Both the position numbers and the translations under genes were made by a program. Shown in pieces: positions 7,480 to 18,578 of a stretch of DNA of 18,578 bases. This stretch comes from a virus: the UHGV virus genome UHGV-0126919. One strand, written 5' to 3'. Position 1 is the stretch's first letter. Every line of letters begins with the position of its first letter. A model generated the notes under the pieces. It worked only from the letters and a program-made list of their open reading frames with translations, did no database searches and was not told the origin of the DNA.

Positions 7480-8568
7480 TTAATTTTTATCGCGGTTTTT
7501 AAATACTGACCCAATAACATTTTTTACTGCTTCAGCCTGTTTGTTGCCGTTGTTTTCTGGTTGATTAACATCAACTGAATCATTCACCTCACTTGCGTCT
7601 TCTTGCCGTTGATTAAGAAAGTTTTTGTTACGCGCTCGCTCTGCATTCATAATTTCCAAAGCAAGTTCAGCCGCAGAAACTCCTGTTTTGAATTTTGCAT
7701 TCTTAACCAGGTCGTCATGACCAGGAATCACGCTATTCTCGATTGTTTCAATGCGCTCGCGTTCTGATTTAACGCCCTCGTCTTTACCAGCATTAAAAAC
7801 CTGATTGTATAATTCTGGATATTTATTTTTTAATTCATCAAGAGTCACAATATCGTCCTCATTTTGTTCATTTGATTCAGTAGATAACTCATTTTTATTT
7901 TGCGGCAACTTTGCGAGTGAATCAGGTAATTTTGAAAACCTTGATGCTTCAAAAGTTATTCCATTAAGCGAAAGCATCCCTTCCTTTATAGAAGCGGATA
8001 AGCGTATTGGTTTTTCAACTTCGTCAGCAAATCCAAGCTCTACAGCCTCTTCTGCATTTAGCCATGTTTCCTGATCCATTAGTTCAATTAATTTATCCTC
8101 AGAAAGCCCTGTTTTCTCCTTATATGCAGATAAAATACTATTGCGTATCTTATCCATCATCTCAGCAATATCACGCAATTCATCCGCATCGCCAGCAGCA
8201 AATGTCCACGGATTATGGATCATCATCATAGCATTAGATGGGATAATAGTTTTATCACCCGCCATTGCAATAATAGTTGCAGCCGATGCAGCAATCCCGT
8301 CGATATAAACCGTAATATTCGCCTTATGACGCTTTAATGATGAAAGAATAGCTTGAGCAGTAAAAACAGAACCACCATAACTATTAATTTTTACGTTGAT
8401 AGTATTTGATGAAATATCCTTTAATTTATTAACTATGTCAGAAGAAGAAACCTCATCAAATTCACCAATATACCCGTAAATTAAAAGTTCAGCCGGAGAG
8501 TCATCTTCACCCGTGCTATTTTTTATTTCCCACCAATTAGGCATCATCAGTCTCCATATTTTGTTCAT
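7480..8568 (-). CDS. prohead protease / scaffold (ClpP/S49 family, lambda gpC-like)
   Basis: 362 aa with serine-protease signatures (…NSYGGSVFTAQAI…, …IDGIAASAATIIAMAGDK…, …MMIHNP…) and a charged, helical C-terminal half typical of a fused scaffold. Overlaps the portal gene end as lambda C overlaps B. Confidence 0.85.
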   Translation of the reverse strand: MNKIWRLMMPNWWEIKNSTGEDDSPAELLIYGYIGEFDEVSSSDIVNKLKDISSNTINVKINSYGGSVFTAQAILSSLKRHKANITVYIDGIAASAATIIAMAGDKTIIPSNAMMMIHNPWTFAAGDADELRDIAEMMDKIRNSILSAYKEKTGLSEDKLIELMDQETWLNAEEAVELGFADEVEKPIRLSASIKEGMLSLNGITFEASRFSKLPDSLAKLPQNKNELSTESNEQNEDDIVTLDELKNKYPELYNQVFNAGKDEGVKSERERIETIENSVIPGHDDLVKNAKFKTGVSAAELALEIMNAERARNKNFLNQRQEDASEVNDSVDVNQPENNGNKQAEAVKNVIGSVFKNRDKN

Positions 8569-10358: not shown

Positions 10359-11780
10359 CTATATGGTTACGCCTTTACTTATAACTCTACGGCGTCTTCT
10401 ACGTATACCTGACGAGTTCTGCACATACACATTACCTCGCATTTCCTGTTCGGCAAGCCAGTTAAAATTAGGGTTCAGAATTTCCATCGCGGCAGTTGCA
10501 TAGTTACGGCAATCAAGAGGCTCGTTACGCTCGTAGACTTTCACCCACTTTTCTTTTGTCTGCCCATTTTTATATTCAAATATTTTTTTCTCTGATAATA
10601 ATCCTTTAAAGTATTCGGTATCATATCCTCTGTCAGAATCTAATGGGAAATGCATATAACCAGGACCAGGATCATGTAGTTTAATTCTTGCCATGATGGT
10701 CCCTTTACCATCATCAACCCCCAAATTAAACAACATAGCACCCACACGGTTATTATTACTTGGCTTTCCTATAAATGGTAAACCTACCCCACCACGCCCC
10801 CTGATAGAGTATATTCGCCTTGATTCTCTCGGCTTAGTAAAGCGATATACCTCTGTCGTAAAATGCCCACCAGAGTCAATACAAACGGAAGAAATCTGTA
10901 ATTTTCGACCGTCACGGAATGACCAGCTACGGAGTAAGTATTCATCAAGTTGTTTCCAGACAACATCTTGTGCGGGATCACCTGGGAATATTTTATATTC
11001 TATCCCCCATGACTCCTTACCTTTTCCCCAACCGACCAATTCACAAACTAAATACGTGTCCTGTACGTCAACACCAGCACTTAACAATAAAACATCATCT
11101 GGTAAAAACTCTTCAAACCTTATTCTGCGTTGCAACAAGTATTCAGGATCGATATCGTCTTTAGCATCCTCTTTCCATGGCTCACCCAGCTTAAGGTTAA
11201 TAAACTCCATTAATCCATTTTTATCGCGGTTTCTGGTTGCTTCCGTAAATTCTTCAACCAGCTCTGACAATGCAACCCACGGGGAGTAAAGACTGTTAAT
11301 ATGAAAACCAACAATACCTTTAACTCCAGTATGTTCAGCTATCCATACCCCCTTCGCCAACCAATCAACGTCTGGTTTACCAGATCCGCGCATAATCCCG
11401 CCGCACTCACAGCACTCATATCTGGCCGTTTCCGGTAACGCCTCACCTGAATCGCTCTTATCCCATCTGACTTGCGACCATTTCATCACCTGCATGGTGC
11501 CACAACATGGGCAAGGAACATGGTAGTAACGCTGATCGGAGAGCTTAAACCACTTGTGGATTTTGCTTGTTTCCTCCAAAACAGGAGTAGAAACAAAAAC
11601 TTTCTTACGATTATGAAAGTTGGTAGTACGCTGAATACCTAGTTTTAGTGGGTCGCCCTCCTGCGTCACACCGTAACGATCAATCTCATCAGCTAACAGT
11701 ATTCGAATTGGCCTGGATGCAAGACCTGCTGGGGAATTAGCACCAACAAGTGCTATATATCCACCAGCGTAATGCTTCAT
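10359..11780 (-). CDS. terminase large subunit (lambda gpA-like), C-terminal segment (473 aa)
   Basis: MKHYAGGYIALVGANSPAG… aligns with lambda gpA from about residue 137 (TMKRFTNGRGFWCLGG…) and continues through the …FHINSLYSPW… region (lambda …FHIWTAYSPF…). Its ATG overlaps the TGA of the N-terminal segment (ATGA). Confidence 0.85.
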   Translation of the reverse strand: MKHYAGGYIALVGANSPAGLASRPIRILLADEIDRYGVTQEGDPLKLGIQRTTNFHNRKKVFVSTPVLEETSKIHKWFKLSDQRYYHVPCPCCGTMQVMKWSQVRWDKSDSGEALPETARYECCECGGIMRGSGKPDVDWLAKGVWIAEHTGVKGIVGFHINSLYSPWVALSELVEEFTEATRNRDKNGLMEFINLKLGEPWKEDAKDDIDPEYLLQRRIRFEEFLPDDVLLLSAGVDVQDTYLVCELVGWGKGKESWGIEYKIFPGDPAQDVVWKQLDEYLLRSWSFRDGRKLQISSVCIDSGGHFTTEVYRFTKPRESRRIYSIRGRGGVGLPFIGKPSNNNRVGAMLFNLGVDDGKGTIMARIKLHDPGPGYMHFPLDSDRGYDTEYFKGLLSEKKIFEYKNGQTKEKWVKVYERNEPLDCRNYATAAMEILNPNFNWLAEQEMRGNVYVQNSSGIRRRRRRVISKGVTI

Positions 11781-12178
11781 ACGTATAGTCCTTCATGCAG
11801 CTTGTGTTTCAAACCAGGGGAATATTTGAACGTCGGATCAATACGCTCTTTTGAAAAAGCCTCAGCCGCCTCTACCGTTGGATAAATCATCAACTGAGGA
11901 GATGGCTCCTGATCTGCAAAGTAACCCATAACATTTAGCTGTAATTCGGATTTACCAATTTGCGAGCTACATTGCATCACTACTGTTTCTGTATCAGCGT
12001 CACCAATAACATCCATTGGTTCACGCAAATATGGCACTCGGCTTGTACGCCACGGCCCTGGCTCTGGAGACGTTCCCGGCGCTACATGACGATACTTATC
12101 AGCCCATTCGGAAACAGTTAGCCGTGATTTAGGGCGAAGCGCACGGAAAAAAGCGGTGCTCCATACTGTTTCGCCCAT
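11777..12178 (-). CDS. terminase large subunit (lambda gpA-like), N-terminal segment (133 aa)
   Basis: …TVSEWADKYRHVAPGTSPEPGPWRTSRVPYLREPMDVIG…VVMQCSSQIGKSELQLNVMGYFA… parallels the lambda gpA N-terminus (…TAVEWADANYYLP…VNVVKSARVGYSKMLLGVYAYFI…) including the P-loop-like segment. It ends where the homology continues in the -1 frame, so one gene is split by a frame break. Confidence 0.8.
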   Translation of the reverse strand: MGETVWSTAFFRALRPKSRLTVSEWADKYRHVAPGTSPEPGPWRTSRVPYLREPMDVIGDADTETVVMQCSSQIGKSELQLNVMGYFADQEPSPQLMIYPTVEAAEAFSKERIDPTFKYSPGLKHKLHEGLYV

Positions 12179-12183
12179 GAGGT

Positions 12184-12735
12184 TTATTCTTCCTGCTTAA
12201 TAAATCGGGATTCCTGGAGCGCCTGAAGCGCAAAATTAATCTCGTCTTCAATAATGCGCTCGATCTCCCTGGCTGTTTTGCCTTCACAACGGGGAGCTGC
12301 TCTTGGAGCAATACTAAATAAGCGGCTACGCAATTCATTAGCTGCCAGAAATGCATCATCCCTGACCGCATCTTTAGCGATGAGAGAGCCTTCCTTTTCT
12401 TCAAATTCAAGGCGTTTCAGCTTTGCCTGATAAATTTTTTCTGCGGTCTTAGCCTTGTTGAATTGCACCGCAACACCGGAAGTACCACCAGCTAATCCGG
12501 CATCATCAGCGGGTAACTCTGGTTGTTCCGAAGATATCCCATGCCCTCTTTTTCCATTTTCAGCAGATACCTCACGACCAACCTGTCGGCTCGCTTCATA
12601 AGCCGCACTGGCTTTATCAAAATCCAGCTTGCCGCTTTTCAGCACTGGAATGCGACCGGAACGACAGAGCTTCGTAACCATTGCCGGAGAAATACCTTTC
12701 CGGCGGGCAAACTCTGACTTACTGACGATGGCCAT
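12184..12735 (-). CDS. terminase small subunit (Nu1-like, HTH)
   Basis: N-terminus …SKSEFARRKGISPAMVTKLCRSGRIPVLKSGKLDFDKASAAYEA… resembles lambda Nu1 (…NKKQLADIFGASIRTIQNWQEQGMPVLRGGGKGNEVLYDSAAVIKWY…). Directly upstream of the large terminase. Likely start is ATG at 12735 overlapping the ParB-like TAA (TAATG); the track's TTG at 12744 is an alternative. Confidence 0.7.
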   Translation of the reverse strand: MAIVSKSEFARRKGISPAMVTKLCRSGRIPVLKSGKLDFDKASAAYEASRQVGREVSAENGKRGHGISSEQPELPADDAGLAGGTSGVAVQFNKAKTAEKIYQAKLKRLEFEEKEGSLIAKDAVRDDAFLAANELRSRLFSIAPRAAPRCEGKTAREIERIIEDEINFALQALQESRFIKQEE

Positions 12736-13325
12736 TACTTGCAACCATTAGCAAGATACTGAACAAATCCCTCATGCGTTTCATGCGCGTCGTGGTACTG
12801 ACGATAAACATCCAGCAACAATGCAATTTCCATATCCGTCGCGGGAATACGTTCTTTATCAATAGCCAGGTACTTAATTTGAACAACAGGGGAAGAATTA
12901 TCGTCTTCTTCCTGCGGCTGTTCATCGCTTAACATTTCGTCAAGCTCTGCATCATTAAACCCAAGCAGATCAATATCAAAATCATCATCCATTAACTCTT
13001 TGACTTCTTCGGCCAGAAGCTGCATATCCCAGCCAGCATTTAAGGCCAGCTTGTTATCTGCAATCCTGTAAGCCTTCTTCTGTTTTTCAGAAAGGTTACT
13101 CAACCGAATCGCCGGAACTTTATCCATTTCCAGAATTTCGGCTGCTGCAAGCCGCCCATGCCCCGCAATCAGTTCATTCTTTTCATCGATCAGCACAGGA
13201 TTAGTGAAACCGAACTCACGGATACTGTTCACCAACTGTTCAACTTGCTCATCTGAATGAGTCCGTGAATTTTTGGCATATCTGAGCAACTTACCGACTG
13301 GTAAATATTCGATTTTTAGAGCCAT
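12735..13325 (-). CDS. ParB-like N-terminal (ParB/Srx) domain protein, paralog A
   Basis: 196 aa; …NSRTHSDEQVEQLVNSIREFGFTNPVLIDEKNELIAGHGRLAAA…QKKAYRIADNKLALNAGWD… has the ParB-N style G-H-x-R box. Roughly half its residues match paralog B (15991..16614) by eye. Translationally coupled to the small terminase. Confidence 0.7.
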   Translation of the reverse strand: MALKIEYLPVGKLLRYAKNSRTHSDEQVEQLVNSIREFGFTNPVLIDEKNELIAGHGRLAAAEILEMDKVPAIRLSNLSEKQKKAYRIADNKLALNAGWDMQLLAEEVKELMDDDFDIDLLGFNDAELDEMLSDEQPQEEDDNSSPVVQIKYLAIDKERIPATDMEIALLLDVYRQYHDAHETHEGFVQYLANGCK

Positions 13326-13881
13326 TTTTTAACCGCCATAACACAACAGGTTAAAGAAAACTGTTTAACTTATTGATACTAAAAGAGAAAAATGACGATC
13401 TTTTTACTCATAAAAAATCACACAAACCAGCATAATTATCTGATTTTATTAAGTTTTTATAAGTAAAAAGGATCTTGCGATGGTGTTTTGGTTAAAAGAT
13501 TGGATGTATTTGCATGATTTATAACGATTTTTATCAGAACAACATCACATTGGTTAAAGATCTGCGCGTATCTTGATGATCTAAAAGAAAATTTTCCACT
13601 TTCTTCTTACCAGCACAAATACAGAAAAAATCACGTTTTCCCGATATTTTTCAATGAGATGAGTAAATTTCTTTTACCGCAACTTTTAACCTAACTTTTT
13701 TCACGTTTAGCTAGCCGAATATCGGGGTTCGAATGACCCGCATCCAACGCTTTTGGCCAGAAGGACCCAATTCTGCCGGACGATGAAACGATGCTCGTGC
13801 TCCCCCACAGACAGCCAGCGAGCGACGCTACAGAACACAGTGAATACACTCTGCATAACAACACCATCAACCACACGATGA
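13326..13881. other. 556-bp noncoding region (AT-rich left part, GC-rich right part) upstream of the packaging module; candidate cos/pac or regulatory region
   Basis: No convincing ORF. Direct repeat TTGGTTAAA(A)GAT at 13488-13500 and 13550-13561. Four GATC sites at 13397, 13471, 13559, 13578. GC-rich segment 13700-13860 with small hairpins. Confidence 0.5.
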
Positions 13882-14601
13882 TTAACGAGAGAAGGTCTTA
13901 GAAAGAATGTCATCAATCGCCTTTGTGACTTCATCAGCAAACGCATCCTCACCAGCACGCAGCGCCACGCCATGCCAATCAAGACGCTGCGAATAGTTAG
14001 GTTGCTGGATAAACGTAAGGATCAACGTAGGACGCCGCCCAACGCGCTGCCAGACGCCTGGTTGAAGCGGGTTACTTGTACCAGGTCGAACAACAAAAAA
14101 CTCCGTAGGCTTGCCCTGACGGCGATTTTGATGCGCATCTCGCTGAACTCTTAGGCCAGATAAGACCTGCTGTAATTGCCCCCGCGAAATATTCCCGTAT
14201 TTGTCCAGCTTTGCGCCGGGACCAGGAGCAAGCTGCCAGCCGTTAGGCAAATATCCACCAGCCCTTAGCGCCCCTTCTGAGCGTTTGTACTGTCGTTGGC
14301 CACCTTCGATTTGCGGAGTCAACGTTACAGGGGCTGGCGTTCCTCCCCATTCACGAGCATACACAATGGCTGTAGGATCACTCTTCTTTGCGGCCAAAAC
14401 GTAAGTAGAGTTCTGAATCCACGGCGTGGGCCTGTCAAATACCCGATTAATTTCATTCTTAATCGCAGCCTGAGAAGCCTTTGCCGTTCTGGTTGCCGCA
14501 AGCGCCATTGCGAACGGCAATTCGCGTTCTTCAAGGCGCTGGAGTTGTCGTTGAATATCCTGAGAAGAAAAATCCATCTTTATCTCAATTCTGTCAGCCA
14601 C
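13882..14601 (-). CDS. hypothetical basic protein (239 aa), no family recognised
   Basis: GTG start at 14601 preceded by a strong SD (TAGGAGG, 5-nt spacer), 16 nt downstream of the methyltransferase stop. Arg-rich throughout. Last gene of the ParB-B / methyltransferase unit before the noncoding region. Confidence 0.6.
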   Translation of the reverse strand: MADRIEIKMDFSSQDIQRQLQRLEERELPFAMALAATRTAKASQAAIKNEINRVFDRPTPWIQNSTYVLAAKKSDPTAIVYAREWGGTPAPVTLTPQIEGGQRQYKRSEGALRAGGYLPNGWQLAPGPGAKLDKYGNISRGQLQQVLSGLRVQRDAHQNRRQGKPTEFFVVRPGTSNPLQPGVWQRVGRRPTLILTFIQQPNYSQRLDWHGVALRAGEDAFADEVTKAIDDILSKTFSR

Positions 14602-14617
14602 CAGCGCCTCCTACACA

Positions 14618-15991
14618 CTACTTAATCAACGGCCGGAAAGCCGCCAGCACATCATCAGATCGTCCGATTGTTGAACCACCAGGCAACGGCAACTCAAACT
14701 CAAAACGAACAGCTTTCTCCAGACTCGCCCAACTAAGGGAATCATCGTTAATAACGTGCAAATACCAGCTCTTACAGTTGAATATTGACCGCTTAATCCT
14801 GAAACCATGTACACGACACAACTGCTTCACTTCATCATCAGAGTGAAACTTCTGGTAAAACCAGTGCCCCTTCCGGTACAACGCGGTAAAACCGTTATGA
14901 TCAATAAAATAAAGCCGGCTTTTGGAACTCGCAGCTTGTGTTTGCTTCAGGACTGTTTCCAGCTCTCCACGGCTACGGCCAGAAAAGAATATTGACCCAC
15001 CAGCTTTACACAAGCCTTTCAGAACCGTCAGAACGGACCATTCAGCCTCGACACTATCGACCGAGTTCAAAACGCTATCGCAAATCACGTAGTCGTAACG
15101 CCCTCGCGTTTTTAAGTCGTCCACCAGCGTATCAATCATCCGGTTTGTTGCGGTCCTATCCAGAGTGTTTCCAGCGCCCTTACGGCGGAAAAGCTCGAGA
15201 TCATGCAGGTTATATCCCTTTGCCCTGAGCATTCGCGCGTAGTCTCCCTGCCCCGAACCAAAATCAATTCCTCTTGGCGTCTTGGCAATGATCGGGAGGA
15301 TCAACGACTCATACAGGTTTGATTTCAGGCTGCCACCATTACGCAACCGCATAAGCTGCGCATACGTCTGGATGTATGTTGTTTTCTCCAGATGAGAATA
15401 CTCAAATACACCATAAGTTTTATTCAGATAACTTTGGTATTTTTCCTTCTCAACATCAGGGATCACAAACACCGTTAGCGGTGTGCGCGTCATTTTCGCT
15501 GCTAATGCATACTGAGCACAGTGAATAACCTCACCAGACTGAGTAGCAACACAACCACCCCACGGACCATACTTGATAACCAGTTCCGCTATGTTCTTTC
15601 GAACATATGCCATTTTCGCGCGCATATTGCCTGAGATCTGGCTTGCCGATACCTGAACAAAACCATGCTTATCTTCCAGACCGGACACCCTGCAACGCTC
15701 ATCTCCGCTATCAAAATCCGTTCCGTTATGCAGTTGGTTAAACCGTACTTCGTCGTATACCGTCGTTTCACAGGGCAACACATACACCGCAGCACGCGTT
15801 ATTCCCAACTTACGTAGCGCCTTCGTCCTTTGGTGTCCCGCCACCAGCAAATCGCCGCGCACTATCAATGGCTTCACAAGCCCCAGCTCCCTGACGCTTT
15901 CCGCCAGCCTCGCAAGATCATCCTCACCGATAAAACGCGGGTTATATTCCGCGCCGCGTAGGTGCGTTATGTCGTAATTGAGGTGAAGCAT
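14618..15991 (-). CDS. ParB-like N-terminal domain fused to a class I SAM-dependent methyltransferase domain
   Basis: N-terminus …YNPRFIGEDDLARLAESVRELGLVKPLIVRGDLLVAGHQRTKAL… is ParB-N-like. C-terminal half has Rossmann methyltransferase motifs in class I order: motif I GIDFGSGQGDY, acidic post-I (…YNLHDLELF), motif II YDYVICDSVL, motif III LCKAGGSIFFS. No (D/N/S)PP(Y/F/W) motif seen by eye. Likely start is ATG at 15991 (TGATG overlap with the ParB-B stop, SD GGAGG 7 nt upstream); the track uses GTG at 15997. Confidence 0.75.
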   Translation of the reverse strand: MLHLNYDITHLRGAEYNPRFIGEDDLARLAESVRELGLVKPLIVRGDLLVAGHQRTKALRKLGITRAAVYVLPCETTVYDEVRFNQLHNGTDFDSGDERCRVSGLEDKHGFVQVSASQISGNMRAKMAYVRKNIAELVIKYGPWGGCVATQSGEVIHCAQYALAAKMTRTPLTVFVIPDVEKEKYQSYLNKTYGVFEYSHLEKTTYIQTYAQLMRLRNGGSLKSNLYESLILPIIAKTPRGIDFGSGQGDYARMLRAKGYNLHDLELFRRKGAGNTLDRTATNRMIDTLVDDLKTRGRYDYVICDSVLNSVDSVEAEWSVLTVLKGLCKAGGSIFFSGRSRGELETVLKQTQAASSKSRLYFIDHNGFTALYRKGHWFYQKFHSDDEVKQLCRVHGFRIKRSIFNCKSWYLHVINDDSLSWASLEKAVRFEFELPLPGGSTIGRSDDVLAAFRPLIK

Positions 15992-16614
15992 CAGCACACC
16001 TCCCCAGCCAGCAATGCGGATACAAATCCGATATAGCTGCCATTATCATCAACATAACGAGACACCGCGCAGTCAAAACGATCCGCTTCCTCATCCGTTG
16101 CCGGGATTTTATGACCTCCAAATGACAGGTACTGAACTTTTACGCCTGATTTGGCCTCATCCTTCTCAAATGGGATATCCATACCCTCTGTGTCATCGTA
16201 GACCGCCGCACTCAATAAGTTATCCAGTTCGCGCTGAGTAAAACCAATTGAGTCCAGAGAAAAATCATCGGCCGCAAGATCTGCAAGCTCCGCGCTTAAC
16301 AACTCTTCATCCCAACCAGCATTCAGCGGAATACGGTTGTCGGCCAGACGATATGCCTTCTTCTGATTCTCCGTTAGCCCAGCCAGAACAATGCAGGGAA
16401 CATCATCCATCCCCAACTGAGTGGCCGCAGCAATTCGACCATGACCAGCAATTACAACGTTGTTCTCGTCTATCAGGATCGGATTAGTCCATCCGTACTC
16501 CTGTATGCTGGCAACAATCTGATCTACCTGCTCCACGGAGTGTGTGCGAGCGTTCTTTTCATAACCAATCAACACAGAAAGTGGTAAAGAAACCACATTA
16601 AGTTGTTTTGTCAT
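15991..16614 (-). CDS. ParB-like N-terminal (ParB/Srx) domain protein, paralog B
   Basis: 207 aa; …NARTHSVEQVDQIVASIQEYGWTNPILIDENNVVIAGHGRIAAA…QKKAYRLADNRIPLNAGWD… is clearly paralogous to 12735..13325. Translationally coupled to the methyltransferase fusion. Confidence 0.7.
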   Translation of the reverse strand: MTKQLNVVSLPLSVLIGYEKNARTHSVEQVDQIVASIQEYGWTNPILIDENNVVIAGHGRIAAATQLGMDDVPCIVLAGLTENQKKAYRLADNRIPLNAGWDEELLSAELADLAADDFSLDSIGFTQRELDNLLSAAVYDDTEGMDIPFEKDEAKSGVKVQYLSFGGHKIPATDEEADRFDCAVSRYVDDNGSYIGFVSALLAGEVC

Positions 16615-16742
16615 GCCGTTTATCCGCTAAAATCCCCTCGCTTGTGCAAGCAAGTGGGCCTCGGTTTGTATCCACGGCACCCTGTGGGTATGAATGACTG
16701 TCGTCAGGTCGCAACTGACGGCGGTCGCCCACCTTCCAGTAA

Positions 16743-16787
16743 TAAAAAAGCCACCAGCATTAACTCCACAATGAGCTGGAGTTAATG
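16743..16787 (-). terminator. hairpin (11-bp perfect inverted repeat) plus U-run; possible weak terminator or regulatory hairpin
   Basis: Inverted repeat CATTAACTCCA / TGGAGTTAATG (16758-16768 and 16777-16787, 8-nt spacer). On the minus-strand transcript it is followed by GCUGGUGGC and a U6 run (plus-strand A-run 16743-16749). The 8-9 nt gap between stem and U-run makes terminator function uncertain. Confidence 0.3.
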
Positions 16788-16848
16788 AGGCAGCTTTGGT
16801 TTGCGCATTATCGCAGCCCCTGATAAGCACAAGAGCTGCTGTAATGCG

Positions 16849-17259
16849 TTACTCTGGTATCAAACAGATGTGGCCGTTATTTACCTCAATACGGGAATAT
16901 TCCGGCTTACCATCCACGATTCCGGTAATGACAAGTTCGCCATCAGGCGACCATTCTTCTTTGTCGTCTTCAAGTACCGCGCCTTCTGGCAAATCAATAC
17001 AGGCAAAAACAGGGCAGCCAGGATGACGTTTATCCTCCATCGCAATCAGCATCGACTCACCGAACCACTCTGTGGTAGCACGGCCATCAGCCGCCTGATA
17101 GTGAATCAGATACTGGTTTTCGCCATTTGCATACTGAGCACGGGCTTTAACTTCTCCCCATTCGTCACTGATACGCATTGTTACCAGTTGGGATAATTCA
17201 AACTTAAACGGAACAGCATCTGCACCAATGGCAATCGGTTTATCTTCTTTCTTTTCCAT
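16849..17259 (-). CDS. hypothetical protein (136 aa; track ORF extends to 17328)
   Basis: Internal ATG at 17259 has a good SD (AGGTGA, 5-nt spacer) and lies just downstream of the 17271-17300 terminator; the track's upstream extension would read through that hairpin. Acidic soluble protein, no family recognised. Confidence 0.5.
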   Translation of the reverse strand: MEKKEDKPIAIGADAVPFKFELSQLVTMRISDEWGEVKARAQYANGENQYLIHYQAADGRATTEWFGESMLIAMEDKRHPGCPVFACIDLPEGAVLEDDKEEWSPDGELVITGIVDGKPEYSRIEVNNGHICLIPE

Positions 17260-17270
17260 AACATCACCTG

Positions 17271-17300
17271 AAAATAAAAAGCCCCGCGACACCGCGAGGC
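17271..17300 (-). terminator. rho-independent terminator (minus strand)
   Basis: Minus-strand RNA: GCCUCGCG-GUGU-CGCGGGGC (8-bp GC-rich stem with one G-U pair, 4-nt loop) followed directly by UUUUUAUUUU. Lies 9 nt downstream of the 50-aa gene stop. Confidence 0.65.
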
Positions 17301-17308
17301 TGTAAGAG

Positions 17309-17461
17309 TTACTTTCGATAGAAATCAAGGCGCAATTGCTCCCGCTTACGCCGAAAAGCTCTCTGCGCCACTAAGATGCGCCACAGGACACCAGCGATAA
17401 CCACCAGCGAGATACAAAAACACACGGCCACAACCATCAGAAAAATGCCAACACCATTCAT
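17309..17461 (-). CDS. small single-pass membrane protein (50 aa), not in the ORF track
   Basis: ATG at 17461 overlaps the upstream TGA (ATGA). Translation MNGVGIFLMVVAVCFCISLVVIAGVLWRILVAQRAFRRKREQLRLDFYRK: hydrophobic N-terminal helix and strongly basic C-terminus. Followed by the 17271-17300 terminator. Below the track's 60-aa cut-off. Confidence 0.5.
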   Translation of the reverse strand: MNGVGIFLMVVAVCFCISLVVIAGVLWRILVAQRAFRRKREQLRLDFYRK

Positions 17462-17664
17462 GAAACTATCCATTCTTCAATGAATATCTCCAGTAATATC
17501 AAGAGATACGCCGTTCCCAGCGCGGTTCCTACCGATATAGCTAAGACAAACCTCAAAGATAACGAGGTGTCCTTCGCTTTTCTCCAGACGTAAGCGCCAG
17601 CCAGAAATACCAACAAATCTCTTATTGGAAGCGGAAACCAGAACAAATCACTCGGCAAGTCCAC
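17458..17664 (-). CDS. small two-transmembrane protein (69 aa from GTG; holin-like topology)
   Basis: The track's TTG start at 17715 lacks an RBS and overlaps the upstream gene by 49 nt. GTG at 17664 has SD AAGGA with a 7-nt spacer and sits right after the upstream stop (17667-17669). Two hydrophobic segments (…LFWFPLPIRDLLVFLAGAYVW… and …FVLAISVGTALGTAYLLILLEIFI…). Confidence 0.45.
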   Translation of the reverse strand: MDLPSDLFWFPLPIRDLLVFLAGAYVWRKAKDTSLSLRFVLAISVGTALGTAYLLILLEIFIEEWIVS

Positions 17665-17666
17665 GG

Positions 17667-18122
17667 TTATATCCTTCCATTCATTTTTATCGGGTGACCA
17701 GATAGCCTTAGGCAATTGAGCTGTAAAGCTCCTGTATCAACTAAATGATCAACTAACATGATTAGAGATTCATATTCAGCCAGATAGCTAACCTGACGCA
17801 TTCGACCGCCGTTGTTCTCCAGAATGTCAGCCACCTTTGCAGCCAACTCGCTTAGACAGAAGAACTTATTCCCATATATCGTTTTATACTCGCGCTTCTG
17901 GCATTCTTCGGCTTGCGGCTGGTTATCGAGAGCTATCAGCGACCGATGGCTATCAATGAAGTCCACAATCTCATTCAGGCATTCTTTAGCTGCCTCATCG
18001 TGACTTTTTCCGTATGCTTCACGGAGGACTTTCATCCTCATCATTGCTCCGTCACATATAGTCGAAAGCGCGTAAAGCACATCACTAACCGCCATTTCTT
18101 TTTTGGTGCTTGTCGAAGGCAT
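17667..18122 (-). CDS. hypothetical protein (151 aa), first gene after the upstream terminator
   Basis: ATG at 18122 with SD AAGGAG about 9 nt upstream; the 18148-18173 terminator lies just upstream of that RBS. Soluble, no family recognised. Confidence 0.5.
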   Translation of the reverse strand: MPSTSTKKEMAVSDVLYALSTICDGAMMRMKVLREAYGKSHDEAAKECLNEIVDFIDSHRSLIALDNQPQAEECQKREYKTIYGNKFFCLSELAAKVADILENNGGRMRQVSYLAEYESLIMLVDHLVDTGALQLNCLRLSGHPIKMNGRI

Positions 18123-18147
18123 CCCATGTTCTCCTTTGTCTGGATGT

Positions 18148-18173
18148 AAAAAAGCCCCGGCAATTGCCGAGGC
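18148..18173 (-). terminator. rho-independent terminator (minus strand)
   Basis: Minus-strand RNA: GCCUCGGC-AAUU-GCCGGGGC (8-bp GC-rich stem with one G-U pair, 4-nt loop) followed directly by UUUUUU. Lies downstream of the 65-aa gene and about 10 nt upstream of the RBS of the 151-aa gene. Confidence 0.7.
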
Positions 18174-18196
18174 TCGTTGTTCGTTATCGTTACGGT

Positions 18197-18394
18197 TTAA
18201 TGCTCGCGTCGTCCGGCGACAACTTCGGATTTGTATTTCAGGTCGCCCAGCAAGAATTGCAGTTTAAGCATCTTTGCCGCCGTGTAGTTCCCTGATTCCA
18301 CAACCTCTTTCATGAGGTCATAAACGGCCGCTACATCATCAGCCAGGAACTCTTTGCGTTGCTGCTCAGTCGCACGTTTGAAGGAAATACGCAT
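18197..18394 (-). CDS. hypothetical small protein (65 aa)
   Basis: ATG at 18394 overlaps the TGA of the upstream partial ORF (TGATG), with SD AGGAG about 10 nt upstream. No family recognised. Confidence 0.4.
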   Translation of the reverse strand: MRISFKRATEQQRKEFLADDVAAVYDLMKEVVESGNYTAAKMLKLQFLLGDLKYKSEVVAGRREH

Positions 18395-18578
18395 CACTCA
18401 TCATCTCCTGCCGCACATACAACCTCACAAAAAAAATCAGCAGAATGTTTCTCCTTGAACGAATGACGCTCAAAACCGCACTCAATATCAGGCGCAAAAA
18501 CATCCACCACATACGGTCTTTCAGAATGTTTGTTTTCCCAACGATAAACCGTAGTGACGTTGAAATGTTTTAACGCTT
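18394..18578 (-). CDS. partial CDS, C-terminal end of a gene starting beyond the window
   Basis: Minus-strand frame open for 60 codons from the window edge to TGA at 18394-18396 (…VYRWENKHSERPYVVDVFAPDIECGFERHSFKEKHSADFFCEVVCAAGDDE). Absent from the track because its start is outside the window. Function unknown. Confidence 0.35.
   Translation of the reverse strand, partial: ALKHFNVTTVYRWENKHSERPYVVDVFAPDIECGFERHSFKEKHSADFFCEVVCAAGDDE

What the first reader, a model, noticed from the sequence alone, without database searches (positions are those of the whole stretch)
12735..16614. ParB-like / ParB-methyltransferase / basic-protein cargo module next to the packaging genes
Three proteins carry ParB-N (ParB/Srx) domains within 4 kb. 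Two ~200-aa paralogs are each translationally coupled to a different partner: paralog A to the small terminase (TAATG), paralog B to the ParB-methyltransferase fusion (TGATG). The methyltransferase domain shows class I motifs I, post-I, II and III in small-molecule/RNA order, with no (D/N/S)PP(Y/F/W) motif visible, so it may not be a standard N6-adenine or N4-cytosine DNA methyltransferase despite the DNA/CTP-binding type domain. A basic 239-aa protein of no recognisable family closes the unit. The block sits on the late strand between lysis-like genes and the terminase, a known moron hotspot. Plausible roles are phage DNA modification before packaging (anti-restriction), an unusual nucleic-acid modification, or an exclusion/defence function; the combination is not one I can assign to a characterised system.
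Basis: partly seen in the sequence, partly recalled or inferred. Interest (0 to 1): 0.75.

Follow-up and report, generated by a model that had tools for sequence, protein, structure and literature searches.

The report
Phage ParB-methyltransferase pair beside terminase genes
This stretch of an E. coli phage-plasmid carries a widespread but uncharacterised gene pair, a small ParB-like protein plus a ParB-fused methyltransferase of non-DNA-methylase type, that sits beside the DNA-packaging genes in many unrelated phages and probably modifies phage DNA around packaging; the neighbouring 239-aa protein is an ordinary tail-type virion protein.

Summary
The genes are real and mostly as described. 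There are three ParB-fold proteins. The two small ones are paralogs (48% identical), and each overlaps its partner's start codon (TAATG, TGATG). The fusion carries a class I SAM methyltransferase domain with no PP-type motif.

Three points need correcting:
- The element is a 47-49 kb E. coli/Yersinia phage-plasmid (a myovirus), and its plasmid partition genes lie elsewhere.
- The block is not one unit. A probable 12-nt cohesive end (GGTCATTCGAAC, 13727-13738) separates ParB-B/ParB-MT/239-aa from ParB-A/TerS/TerL.
- The 239-aa protein has an HK97-gp10/lambda-gpZ-like fold. It travels with gpA-type terminases, not with the methyltransferase.

The conserved unit is small ParB plus ParB-MT. A small ParB lies directly upstream in 55 of 59 viral loci. 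Two natural fusions exist. A large terminase of one of four families follows in at least 48 of 59 loci. The family has about 308 clusters across many phyla.

The ParB-Methyltransf_23 architecture has already been catalogued, and a fusion with the same GHQRTKA motif binds ATP. The function is unknown. The most likely reading is a nucleotide-gated, ParB-tethered DNA modification enzyme acting at packaging. Its substrate is unproven.

The parts
15991..16614 (-). ParB-B: small acidic ParB-like protein (207 aa, pI 4.25). It has an N-terminal nucleotide-binding ParB fold (GHGR, ADN, GWD motifs), an acidic linker and a conserved ~50-aa C-terminal domain, with no HTH. Its stop codon overlaps the ParB-MT start (TGATG).
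14618..15991 (-). ParB-MT fusion (457 aa, pI 9.2). Residues 1-100 (nt 15692-15991) are a ParB nucleotide-binding fold with invariant YNPR, GHQRT and FNQLHNGTD motifs. Residues ~101-200 (nt 15392-15691) are a conserved basic middle domain (GEVIHCAQYALA) that may be a degenerate second ParB-like domain. Residues ~201-457 (nt 14621-15391) are a class I SAM methyltransferase (DFGSGQG, E266, CDSVLNSVD, SGR, W-YQK-H).
13882..14601 (-). 239-aa basic protein (pI 10.1) with an HK97 gp10 / lambda gpZ-like (tail-completion type) fold. It is the last gene before the probable cos site. It is not a conserved partner of ParB-MT.
13727..13738 (-). Probable 12-nt cohesive end GGTCATTCGAAC (cosN), inside the most conserved block of the intergenic region.
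   Evidence: Three Yersinia phage records of the same phage break either just before or just after this 12-mer. The block is conserved in relatives whose ParB-MT is about 90% and 70% identical. It is unique in the window.
13328..13691 (.). AT-rich spacer between the probable cos site and ParB-A. It holds 5 of the window's 6 TTTAACC heptamers, in both orientations. These are candidate cosB-like protein-binding sites, for TerS or for ParB-A/TerS.
   Evidence: A relative (L019) carries a longer array of TTGTTAACC in the same place.
12735..13325 (-). ParB-A: paralog of ParB-B (196 aa, 48% identical, pI 4.5). It is the first gene after the probable cos site, and its stop codon overlaps the TerS start (TAATG).
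12184..12735 (-). Small terminase subunit (183 aa, phrog_57, pI 9.1).
10359..12178 (-). Large terminase, gpA type. In this window it is split into 133-aa and 473-aa ORFs by a 37-bp deletion at about 11790, relative to the intact 618-aa gene of close relatives.

Best explanation
The functional unit is a two-gene module: a small acidic ParB-like protein (ParB-B) plus a basic ParB-fold-fused SAM-dependent methyltransferase (ParB-MT).

Proposed mechanism, all inferred: the ParB folds bind a nucleotide triphosphate, probably ATP. The two proteins associate, perhaps by NTP-driven engagement of their ParB folds. The small protein would then act as a cognate activator or clamp partner, as the ParB-like activators of phage thymine dioxygenases do. 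The complex would hold the methyltransferase on double-stranded phage DNA late in infection, just before or during packaging.

The methyl acceptor is most likely on DNA, but the chemistry is unknown because the catalytic domain is not of any known DNA methyltransferase class.

In this phage lineage the small ParB gene has been duplicated. The second copy (ParB-A) is coupled to the small terminase on the other side of the probable cos site. This suggests the acidic small ParB can also partner a basic DNA-binding packaging protein.

The 239-aa protein is a separate virion tail-completion-type protein.
For: SHOWN
- Operon coupling: a small ParB homolog lies directly upstream of ParB-MT in 55 of 59 IMG/VR loci, overlapping or within 20 bp in 48. 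The same arrangement is seen in most of the 43 loci from bacterial genomes of many phyla.
- Natural fusions: two ~659-aa proteins join a full small ParB to ParB-MT in one chain (hhalign probability 98.7%, E 3.5e-16).
- Terminase synteny: a large terminase follows within 4.5 kb in at least 48 of 59 loci, counting cluster members from one or two Pfam-tested representatives each. The types are gpA in 20, Terminase_6 in 21, Terminase_1 in 4 and Terminase_3 in 3. Bacteroides phage BS-TP3 shows the same order.
- Intact motifs: nucleotide-binding and SAM-binding motifs are invariant across 63 homologs. The structure model is confident (pLDDT 93.9).
- ATP binding in a relative: the P-motif GHQRTKA is identical to that of the 'Mtase23' ParB fusion that bound ATP in Kaljevic et al. 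2025 (PMC12704722 and its supplement).
- Link to DNA modification: the nucleotide-binding fold of the small ParBs is closest to the ParB domains fused to bona fide phage DNA methylases (phrog_498 E 1e-50; PADLOC MTase_II; tblastn). A ParB-like protein whose nucleotide-binding fold is 61% identical to that of ParB-A overlaps a TET-associated glycosyltransferase gene just upstream of terS/terL.
- Precedent: ParB-like proteins with a nucleotide-binding fold and C-terminal domain but no DNA-binding domain activate phage thymine dioxygenases specifically on dsDNA (PMC13229309).
- Charge complementarity: the small ParBs have pI 4.3-4.5. ParB-MT has pI 9.2 and TerS 9.1.
Against: - The methyltransferase domain resembles small-molecule, tRNA and protein methyltransferases (Trm9, CcbJ, glycine N-methyltransferase and others), not DNA methyltransferases.
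- It has no (D/N/S)PP(Y/F/W) motif and no C5-type motifs.
- The phage-plasmid already encodes a conventional MT-A70 DNA methylase. BS-TP3 and the Brochothrix phage also carry separate DNA methylases.
- No methylome, binding or interaction data exist for any member.
- Heterodimerisation, clamp behaviour and the timing of action are inferences.
- Other ParB/Srx-fold enzymes (sulfiredoxin, SerK) act on proteins or small molecules.
Confidence: 0.45

Rival explanations
1. The methyltransferase acts on a non-DNA substrate. Candidates are a packaging or virion protein (TerS, TerL, portal) or a nucleotide or small molecule. In this reading the ParB/Srx fold supplies ATP-dependent substrate activation or regulation rather than DNA tethering.
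For: - The fold neighbours are small-molecule, tRNA and protein methyltransferases.
- ParB/Srx-fold enzymes such as sulfiredoxin and SerK use ATP on non-DNA substrates (PMC12704722).
- A fusion with the same P-motif binds ATP, not CTP.
- The tight synteny with terminase genes would also fit a terminase-directed modification.
Against: - The closest relatives of the small ParB's nucleotide-binding fold are attached to, or paired with, DNA-modifying enzymes.
- The middle and methyltransferase domains are basic.
- The module occurs with four unrelated terminase families, which argues against a specific protein target among them.
Confidence: 0.25
2. The ParB-like proteins are packaging-initiation accessories. 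They would bind or nick DNA near cos/pac and help the small terminase assemble, as HNH proteins help some cos terminases. The methyltransferase domain would be regulatory or secondary.
For: - ParB-A overlaps terS and is the first gene after the probable cos site.
- TTTAACC repeats cluster between that site and ParB-A.
- ParB-like genes commonly sit at genome ends or next to terS in other phages.
- ParB domains fused to methylases have been reported to nick DNA (PMC5512222).
Against: - The small ParBs are strongly acidic and lack a DNA-binding domain.
- Most phages with the same terminase families lack the module, so it is accessory.
- SAM-binding residues are invariant, which implies the catalytic activity matters.
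Confidence: 0.15
3. A Dar-like anti-restriction system. ParB-MT and/or the small ParB would be packaged in the capsid and injected with the DNA to protect it on entry. Alternatively, the module is an exclusion or defence function against other elements.
For: - The genes sit in a late-gene context next to virion genes.
- P1 DarB is a methyltransferase-helicase, and P1 DdrB carries a ParB-like domain and enters the head (PMC5512222).
Against: - The ParB folds here group with the methylase-associated type. Their relation to the DdrB-like type was not examined.
- No capsid-targeting domain was found.
- No defence-system match was found beyond the ParB part of a methylase profile.
- The pair is conserved in strict synteny with terminases, unlike variable cargo.
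Confidence: 0.1

Closest known systems
ParB-CTPase-fold / Methyltransf_23 fusions catalogued by Kaljevic et al. 2025 (PNAS, PMC12704722)
   Same: Same architecture (PF02195 + PF13489) and same enrichment in phages and prophages. The P-motif GHQRTKA is identical to that of the tested 'Mtase23' protein, which bound ATP.
   Different: That survey gives no function, partner or genomic rule. Here the obligate small-ParB partner, the natural fusions, the terminase synteny and the non-DNA-methylase fold type are documented. Identity of the tested protein with this family rests on motif identity only.
ParB-like activators of phage thymine dioxygenases (5mYOX), O'Toole et al. 2026 (PNAS, PMC13229309)
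   Same: A small ParB homolog with a nucleotide-binding fold and a C-terminal domain but no DNA-binding domain. It is encoded next to a phage DNA-modifying enzyme, often near terminases.
   Different: The partner here is a methyltransferase that itself carries a ParB fold, not an Fe/2OG dioxygenase. No activation has been shown.
ParB-fused N6/N4 DNA methyltransferases of phages (phrog_498; PF01555 fusions; B. cereus ParB-methylase)
   Same: The ParB fold of the small proteins is closest to theirs (E about 1e-50). They share the phage late-region or near-terminase location.
   Different: Their catalytic domain is a classical amino-methyltransferase with a DPPY-type motif. ParB-MT has a Methyltransf_23-type domain without it.
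Lambda gpZ / HK97 gp10 family tail-completion proteins
   Different: It is about twice as long, with long terminal helices. It is encoded just upstream of cos/terS rather than among the head-tail genes. The window's own protein has no Pfam hit. Its presence in virions is untested.
Canonical ParABS partition ParB
   Same: It shares the N-terminal nucleotide-binding fold.
   Different: None of the three has an HTH or a ParA neighbour, and all score below the TIGR00180 cut-off. The plasmid's partition genes (ParA plus an 82-aa protein) lie elsewhere.

Membership tests
ParB/Srx nucleotide-binding fold (PF02195) | Profile match plus Box I / GxxR (Box II) / Box III motifs | tested here: met
   ParB-A scores 33.7 bits, above the cut-off of 26.3. 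ParB-B scores 23.9 and ParB-MT 24.3, just below it. PHROG ParB families hit at E 1e-74 and hhalign gives probability 98.9%. The motifs NxRTHS/YNPR, GHGR/GHQR and ADN/FNQLHN are conserved.
Canonical partition ParB (TIGR00180) | Score above the curated cut-off, an HTH DNA-binding domain, and an adjacent ParA | tested here: not met
   Scores are 40.1, 29.6 and 16.4 against a cut-off of 58.45. No HTH domain was found. ParA lies about 13 kb away, paired with an 82-aa gene.
DNA amino-methyltransferases (N6_N4_Mtase, N6_Mtase, MT-A70) | Motif IV (D/N/S)PP(Y/F/W) after strand 4, and a family profile match | tested here: not met
   There is no PP dipeptide in the 457-aa sequence. No such Pfam hit was found. 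No entry among the 50 listed fold hits is described as a DNA methyltransferase.
C5-cytosine DNA methyltransferases | PC and ENV motifs, and a PF00145 match | tested here: not met
   No Pfam match was found. The only PC dipeptide lies in the ParB domain.
Class I SAM-dependent methyltransferase (Methyltransf_23 type) | Rossmann-like fold with motif I GxGxG, an acidic residue after strand 2, and a profile match | tested here: met
   PF13489 scores 32.6 bits, above the cut-off of 27. D243-F-G-x-G247 and E266 are invariant. Foldseek E-values reach 7e-9 against class I methyltransferases.
Class I SAM-dependent methyltransferase (Methyltransf_23 type) | Methyl transfer from SAM to a defined acceptor | not testable with these tools
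   This needs biochemistry.
ParB-Methyltransf_23 fusion class (Kaljevic et al. 2025) | PF02195 + PF13489 in one chain, enriched in phages and prophages | tested here: met
   The P-motif GHQRTKA is identical to that of the paper's Mtase23 protein.
ParB-Methyltransf_23 fusion class (Kaljevic et al. 2025) | ATP binding by the ParB fold | not testable with these tools
   This was shown for one alphaproteobacterial fusion in the paper and has not been shown for this protein.
ParB-like activators of phage DNA-modifying enzymes (5mYOX type) | Nucleotide-binding fold plus C-terminal domain, no DNA-binding domain, encoded beside the enzyme | tested here: met
   The alignment of 30 small ParBs shows this architecture. 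Adjacency holds in 55 of 59 loci.
ParB-like activators of phage DNA-modifying enzymes (5mYOX type) | The partner is a TET/JBP-type dioxygenase, and activation has been demonstrated | tested here: not met
   The partner is a methyltransferase. No dioxygenase is annotated in the full plasmid. Activation is untested.
HK97 gp10 / lambda gpZ tail-completion proteins (239-aa protein) | Fold match and family profile match | tested here: inconclusive
HK97 gp10 / lambda gpZ tail-completion proteins (239-aa protein) | Located in the virion neck or tail top | not testable with these tools
   This needs virion proteomics or cryo-EM.
Known anti-phage defence systems (PADLOC) | Match to a defence protein model | tested here: not met
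   The only match is to the ParB-like N-terminus of a ParB-fused MTase_II profile. Nothing matched the methyltransferase domain or the 239-aa protein.

The most novel reading that the evidence does not exclude
The small-ParB/ParB-MT pair is an ATP-gated, clamp-like methyltransferase system that installs a DNA modification of a chemistry not made by any known DNA methyltransferase class, or marks concatemeric phage DNA for or during packaging. A further ~143-aa cysteine-rich partner is present in most lineages. If so, it would define a new family of phage DNA-modification enzymes mechanistically coupled to terminases.
Probability: 0.15. Interest if true: 0.8.

Novelty: new variant of a known kind. 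Interest (0 to 1): 0.5.

Why it matters
ParB-fold proteins are emerging as nucleotide-gated switches with roles well beyond chromosome segregation. Phages are where most of the unexplained fusions occur.

This module is a clean, widespread and experimentally tractable example. It has two genes, a cultured E. coli/Yersinia phage-plasmid host, and natural fusions that argue for a complex.

If it modifies DNA, it adds a new catalytic class to phage DNA modification, and it could explain modification signals that standard methylase catalogues cannot assign. If it modifies a packaging protein or a nucleotide, it reveals a new layer of control of DNA packaging.

The practical corrections also matter for annotation. 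These 'ParB partition proteins' are not partition proteins. The 239-aa 'hypothetical protein' is probably a tail-completion-type virion protein.

Tried and rejected
- PDB sequence searches for ParB-MT gave only marginal ParB and generic methyltransferase hits. Searches for the 239-aa protein and its profile, and for the 143-aa partner, gave nothing useful.
- NCBIfam and PADLOC gave no informative family for the methyltransferase domain or the 239-aa protein.
- Rfam found nothing in 12000-18578.
- The sigma-70 promoter and terminator scan was not above shuffled expectation.
- I tested whether the middle domain of ParB-MT is a duplicated ParB fold. The order of secondary-structure elements is the same. 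hhalign against the protein's own N-domain found nothing, and against the small-ParB profile gave only a weak in-register hit (E 0.017, probability 2.7%). I left this as a possibility only.
- I tested whether the ~143-aa protein that usually follows ParB-MT is related to the 239-aa protein or is present anywhere in this phage-plasmid. It is neither.
- A profile scan for small-ParB loci failed because no stretch was conserved enough.
- Literature searches for the phage names and protein accessions found no functional study.
- I rejected the idea that the three ParB-like genes serve plasmid partition.

Full report
WHAT THE ELEMENT IS

The window matches at 99.3-99.5% identity a set of circular 47-49 kb E. 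coli plasmids. It also matches Escherichia phage vB_EcoM-613R2 and Yersinia phages vB_YpM_39, 41 and 44.

A complete relative (NZ_CP024865.1) encodes RepA, ParA followed by an 82-aa gene, a RelE/ParE toxin pair, a lambda-like head module and a contractile tail. It is therefore a phage-plasmid. Its partition locus lies far from the region under study.

CHECK OF THE OBSERVATION

All four ORFs exist on the minus strand at the stated coordinates.
- The start/stop overlaps TAATG (ParB-A/TerS) and TGATG (ParB-B/ParB-MT) are present. The 239-aa gene starts at a GTG six bases behind AGGAGG.
- Pfam finds ParB_N in all three proteins and Methyltransf_23 in the fusion.
- PHROGs places the two small proteins in phrog_620, the fusion in phrog_5475 (unknown function, end-to-end match) and the 239-aa protein in phrog_1924, 'minor tail protein'.
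- The small proteins are 48% identical paralogs.
- ParB-MT has motif I DFGSGQG and contains no PP dipeptide at all.

None of the three proteins reaches the curated threshold for partition ParB.

THE BLOCK IS SPLIT BY A PROBABLE COS SITE

The 555-bp gap between the 239-aa gene and ParB-A is AT-rich.
- Its most conserved block, shared with relatives whose ParB-MT is about 90% and 70% identical, contains GCGGGTCATTCGAACCCCGA.
- Records of vB_YpM_41 and vB_YpM_39 end at ...GGATGCG and begin with GGTCATTCGAAC. The record of vB_YpM_44 ends with GGTCATTCGAAC and begins with CCCGAT.
- A 12-mer assigned to either end is what a 12-nt cohesive end produces. I therefore infer cosN at window 13727-13738.
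- Five of the window's six TTTAACC heptamers lie between this site and ParB-A. A relative carries a longer TTGTTAACC array in the same place. This resembles a cosB-type array of binding sites.

In the virion chromosome, ParB-B, ParB-MT and the 239-aa gene are therefore the last three genes, and ParB-A, TerS and TerL are the first three.

THE 239-AA PROTEIN

- Its family has about 100 detectable relatives and no Pfam domain on record.
- The AlphaFold model is good (pLDDT 85.5).
- Weaker viral fold hits are named tail component, minor tail or HK97 gp10.
- Eleven of 63 relatives hit Pfam Minor_tail_Z.
- In three unrelated phages that lack any ParB-MT, the homolog still sits immediately upstream of terS and a gpA-type terL. 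Only the window's own lineage combines it with ParB-MT.

It is thus a gpZ/gp10-like virion-type protein linked to gpA terminases. It is not part of a methyltransferase module.

THE CONSERVED MODULE

ParB-MT homologs keep one architecture end to end. There are 781 hits in the word-indexed search. The exhaustive search finds about 308 clusters (50% identity) at E <= 1e-30, nearly all 450-490 aa long.

Hosts span Gamma- and Alphaproteobacteria, Bacillota, Bacteroidota, Chloroflexota, Planctomycetota, Myxococcota, Chlorobiota and others. Cultured phages include Bacteroides phage BS-TP3 and a Brochothrix phage.

In 77 IMG/VR loci:
- A small ParB homolog lies directly upstream in 55 of the 59 loci with enough upstream sequence. 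In 48 of these it overlaps or lies within 20 bp.
- A large terminase follows within 4.5 kb in at least 48 of 59 loci. This count extends Pfam hits on one or two representatives to the members of each sequence cluster. The types are gpA in 20, Terminase_6 in 21, Terminase_1 in 4 and Terminase_3 in 3.
- Two ~659-aa proteins are natural fusions of a complete small ParB with ParB-MT.
- In 35 of 58 loci a ~143-aa cysteine-rich ORF follows ParB-MT. It has no Pfam, PHROG or PDB match, and it is absent from this phage-plasmid.

WHAT THE PARTS LOOK LIKE

- ParB-MT models with pLDDT 93.9.
- Its N-terminal ParB fold has invariant YNPR, GHQRT and FNQLHNGTD motifs.
- The P-motif GHQRTKA is identical to that listed for the 'Mtase23' ParB fusion that bound ATP in Kaljevic et al. 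2025. That paper also lists ParB-Methyltransf_23 as a phage-enriched fusion of unknown role.
- The methyltransferase domain matches generic class I enzymes, including 3d2l, 3h2b, Trm9, CcbJ and glycine N-methyltransferase. No entry among the 50 listed hits is described as a DNA methyltransferase.
- The small ParBs have a nucleotide-binding fold, an acidic linker and a conserved C-terminal domain, with no HTH.
- The small ParBs are acidic (pI 4.3-4.5). ParB-MT (9.2) and TerS (9.1) are basic.
- The nucleotide-binding fold of the small ParBs is closest to the ParB domains fused to real phage DNA methylases.
- In a lambdoid E. coli phage, a ParB-like protein whose nucleotide-binding fold is 61% identical overlaps a TET-associated glycosyltransferase gene just before terS/terL.

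MECHANISM

The synteny, the coupling and the fusions show that the small ParB and ParB-MT work together and are tied to the packaging region.

By analogy with the ParB-like activators of phage thymine dioxygenases, which are needed specifically on dsDNA (PMC13229309), I infer a nucleotide-gated complex. It would hold a methyltransferase on phage DNA late in infection.

The acceptor is unknown and the catalytic domain is of a non-DNA type. A protein or small-molecule substrate therefore remains a serious rival.

A packaging-accessory role and a Dar-like injected anti-restriction role are less likely. I found no support for a defence function.

NOVELTY

The architecture has been catalogued and one probable member binds ATP. 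The obligate small-ParB partner, the natural fusions, the terminase synteny across four terminase families and the 143-aa third partner were not described in the papers I read.

I rate it a new variant of a known kind, ParB-associated phage modification modules, of moderate interest.

Noticed in passing
window 11777-11800 (large terminase gene, 10359-12178, minus strand): The gpA-type large terminase is split into 133-aa and 473-aa ORFs by a 37-bp deletion, relative to the intact 618-aa gene of vB_EcoM-613R2 and the plasmids. This copy may be unable to package DNA, or the assembly has an error.
   Followed up: yes
window 13727-13738 and 13328-13691: There is a probable 12-nt cohesive end, GGTCATTCGAAC. 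It is inferred from three phage records that break on either side of it. A cluster of five TTTAACC heptamers lies between it and the first gene.
   Followed up: yes
L007:2210-2644, L005:9419-9883 and 33 other loci: A ~143-aa cysteine-rich protein family (HCARCL..YLCGV..PYxWxNNxH..TCRNFQFG) has no Pfam, PHROG or PDB match. It follows ParB-MT in 35 of 58 viral loci, sometimes on the opposite strand. It is absent from this phage-plasmid.
   Followed up: partly
L110 (Kouleothrix aurantiaca), L105, L108, L111, L112 (Chloroflexales): Chloroflexota genomes carry tandem arrays of two or three ParB-MT paralogs flanked by several small ParB genes. This expansion was not seen in the phage loci.
   Followed up: no
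L134:3489-5205 (Escherichia phage vB_EcoS-683R6): A ParB-like gene, with a nucleotide-binding fold 61% identical to ParB-A, overlaps a TET-associated glycosyltransferase (PF20691) gene. The pair lies between the lysis cassette and terS/terL. This is another ParB plus DNA-modifying-enzyme pair at the same genomic position.
   Followed up: partly
L005:11054-17196 (Bradyrhizobium prophage): Amidoligase_2 and two GGACT/AIG2-type genes lie between the ParB-MT module and a Terminase_3 gene. This may be a peptide or amino-acid ligation system of unknown role.
   Followed up: no
window 15392-15691 (ParB-MT residues ~101-200): The conserved middle domain has the same order of secondary-structure elements as a ParB nucleotide-binding fold. 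It gives a weak in-register profile hit to the small ParBs (E 0.017). It could be a degenerate second ParB-like domain, but this is unproven.
   Followed up: partly
L001:7228-7815 and 8123-8198 (just beyond the window's right end): Complete relatives carry an MT-A70 family DNA methyltransferase gene and a tRNA gene between the lysis cassette and the ParB-B operon. The phage therefore has a conventional DNA methylase in addition to ParB-MT.
   Followed up: no
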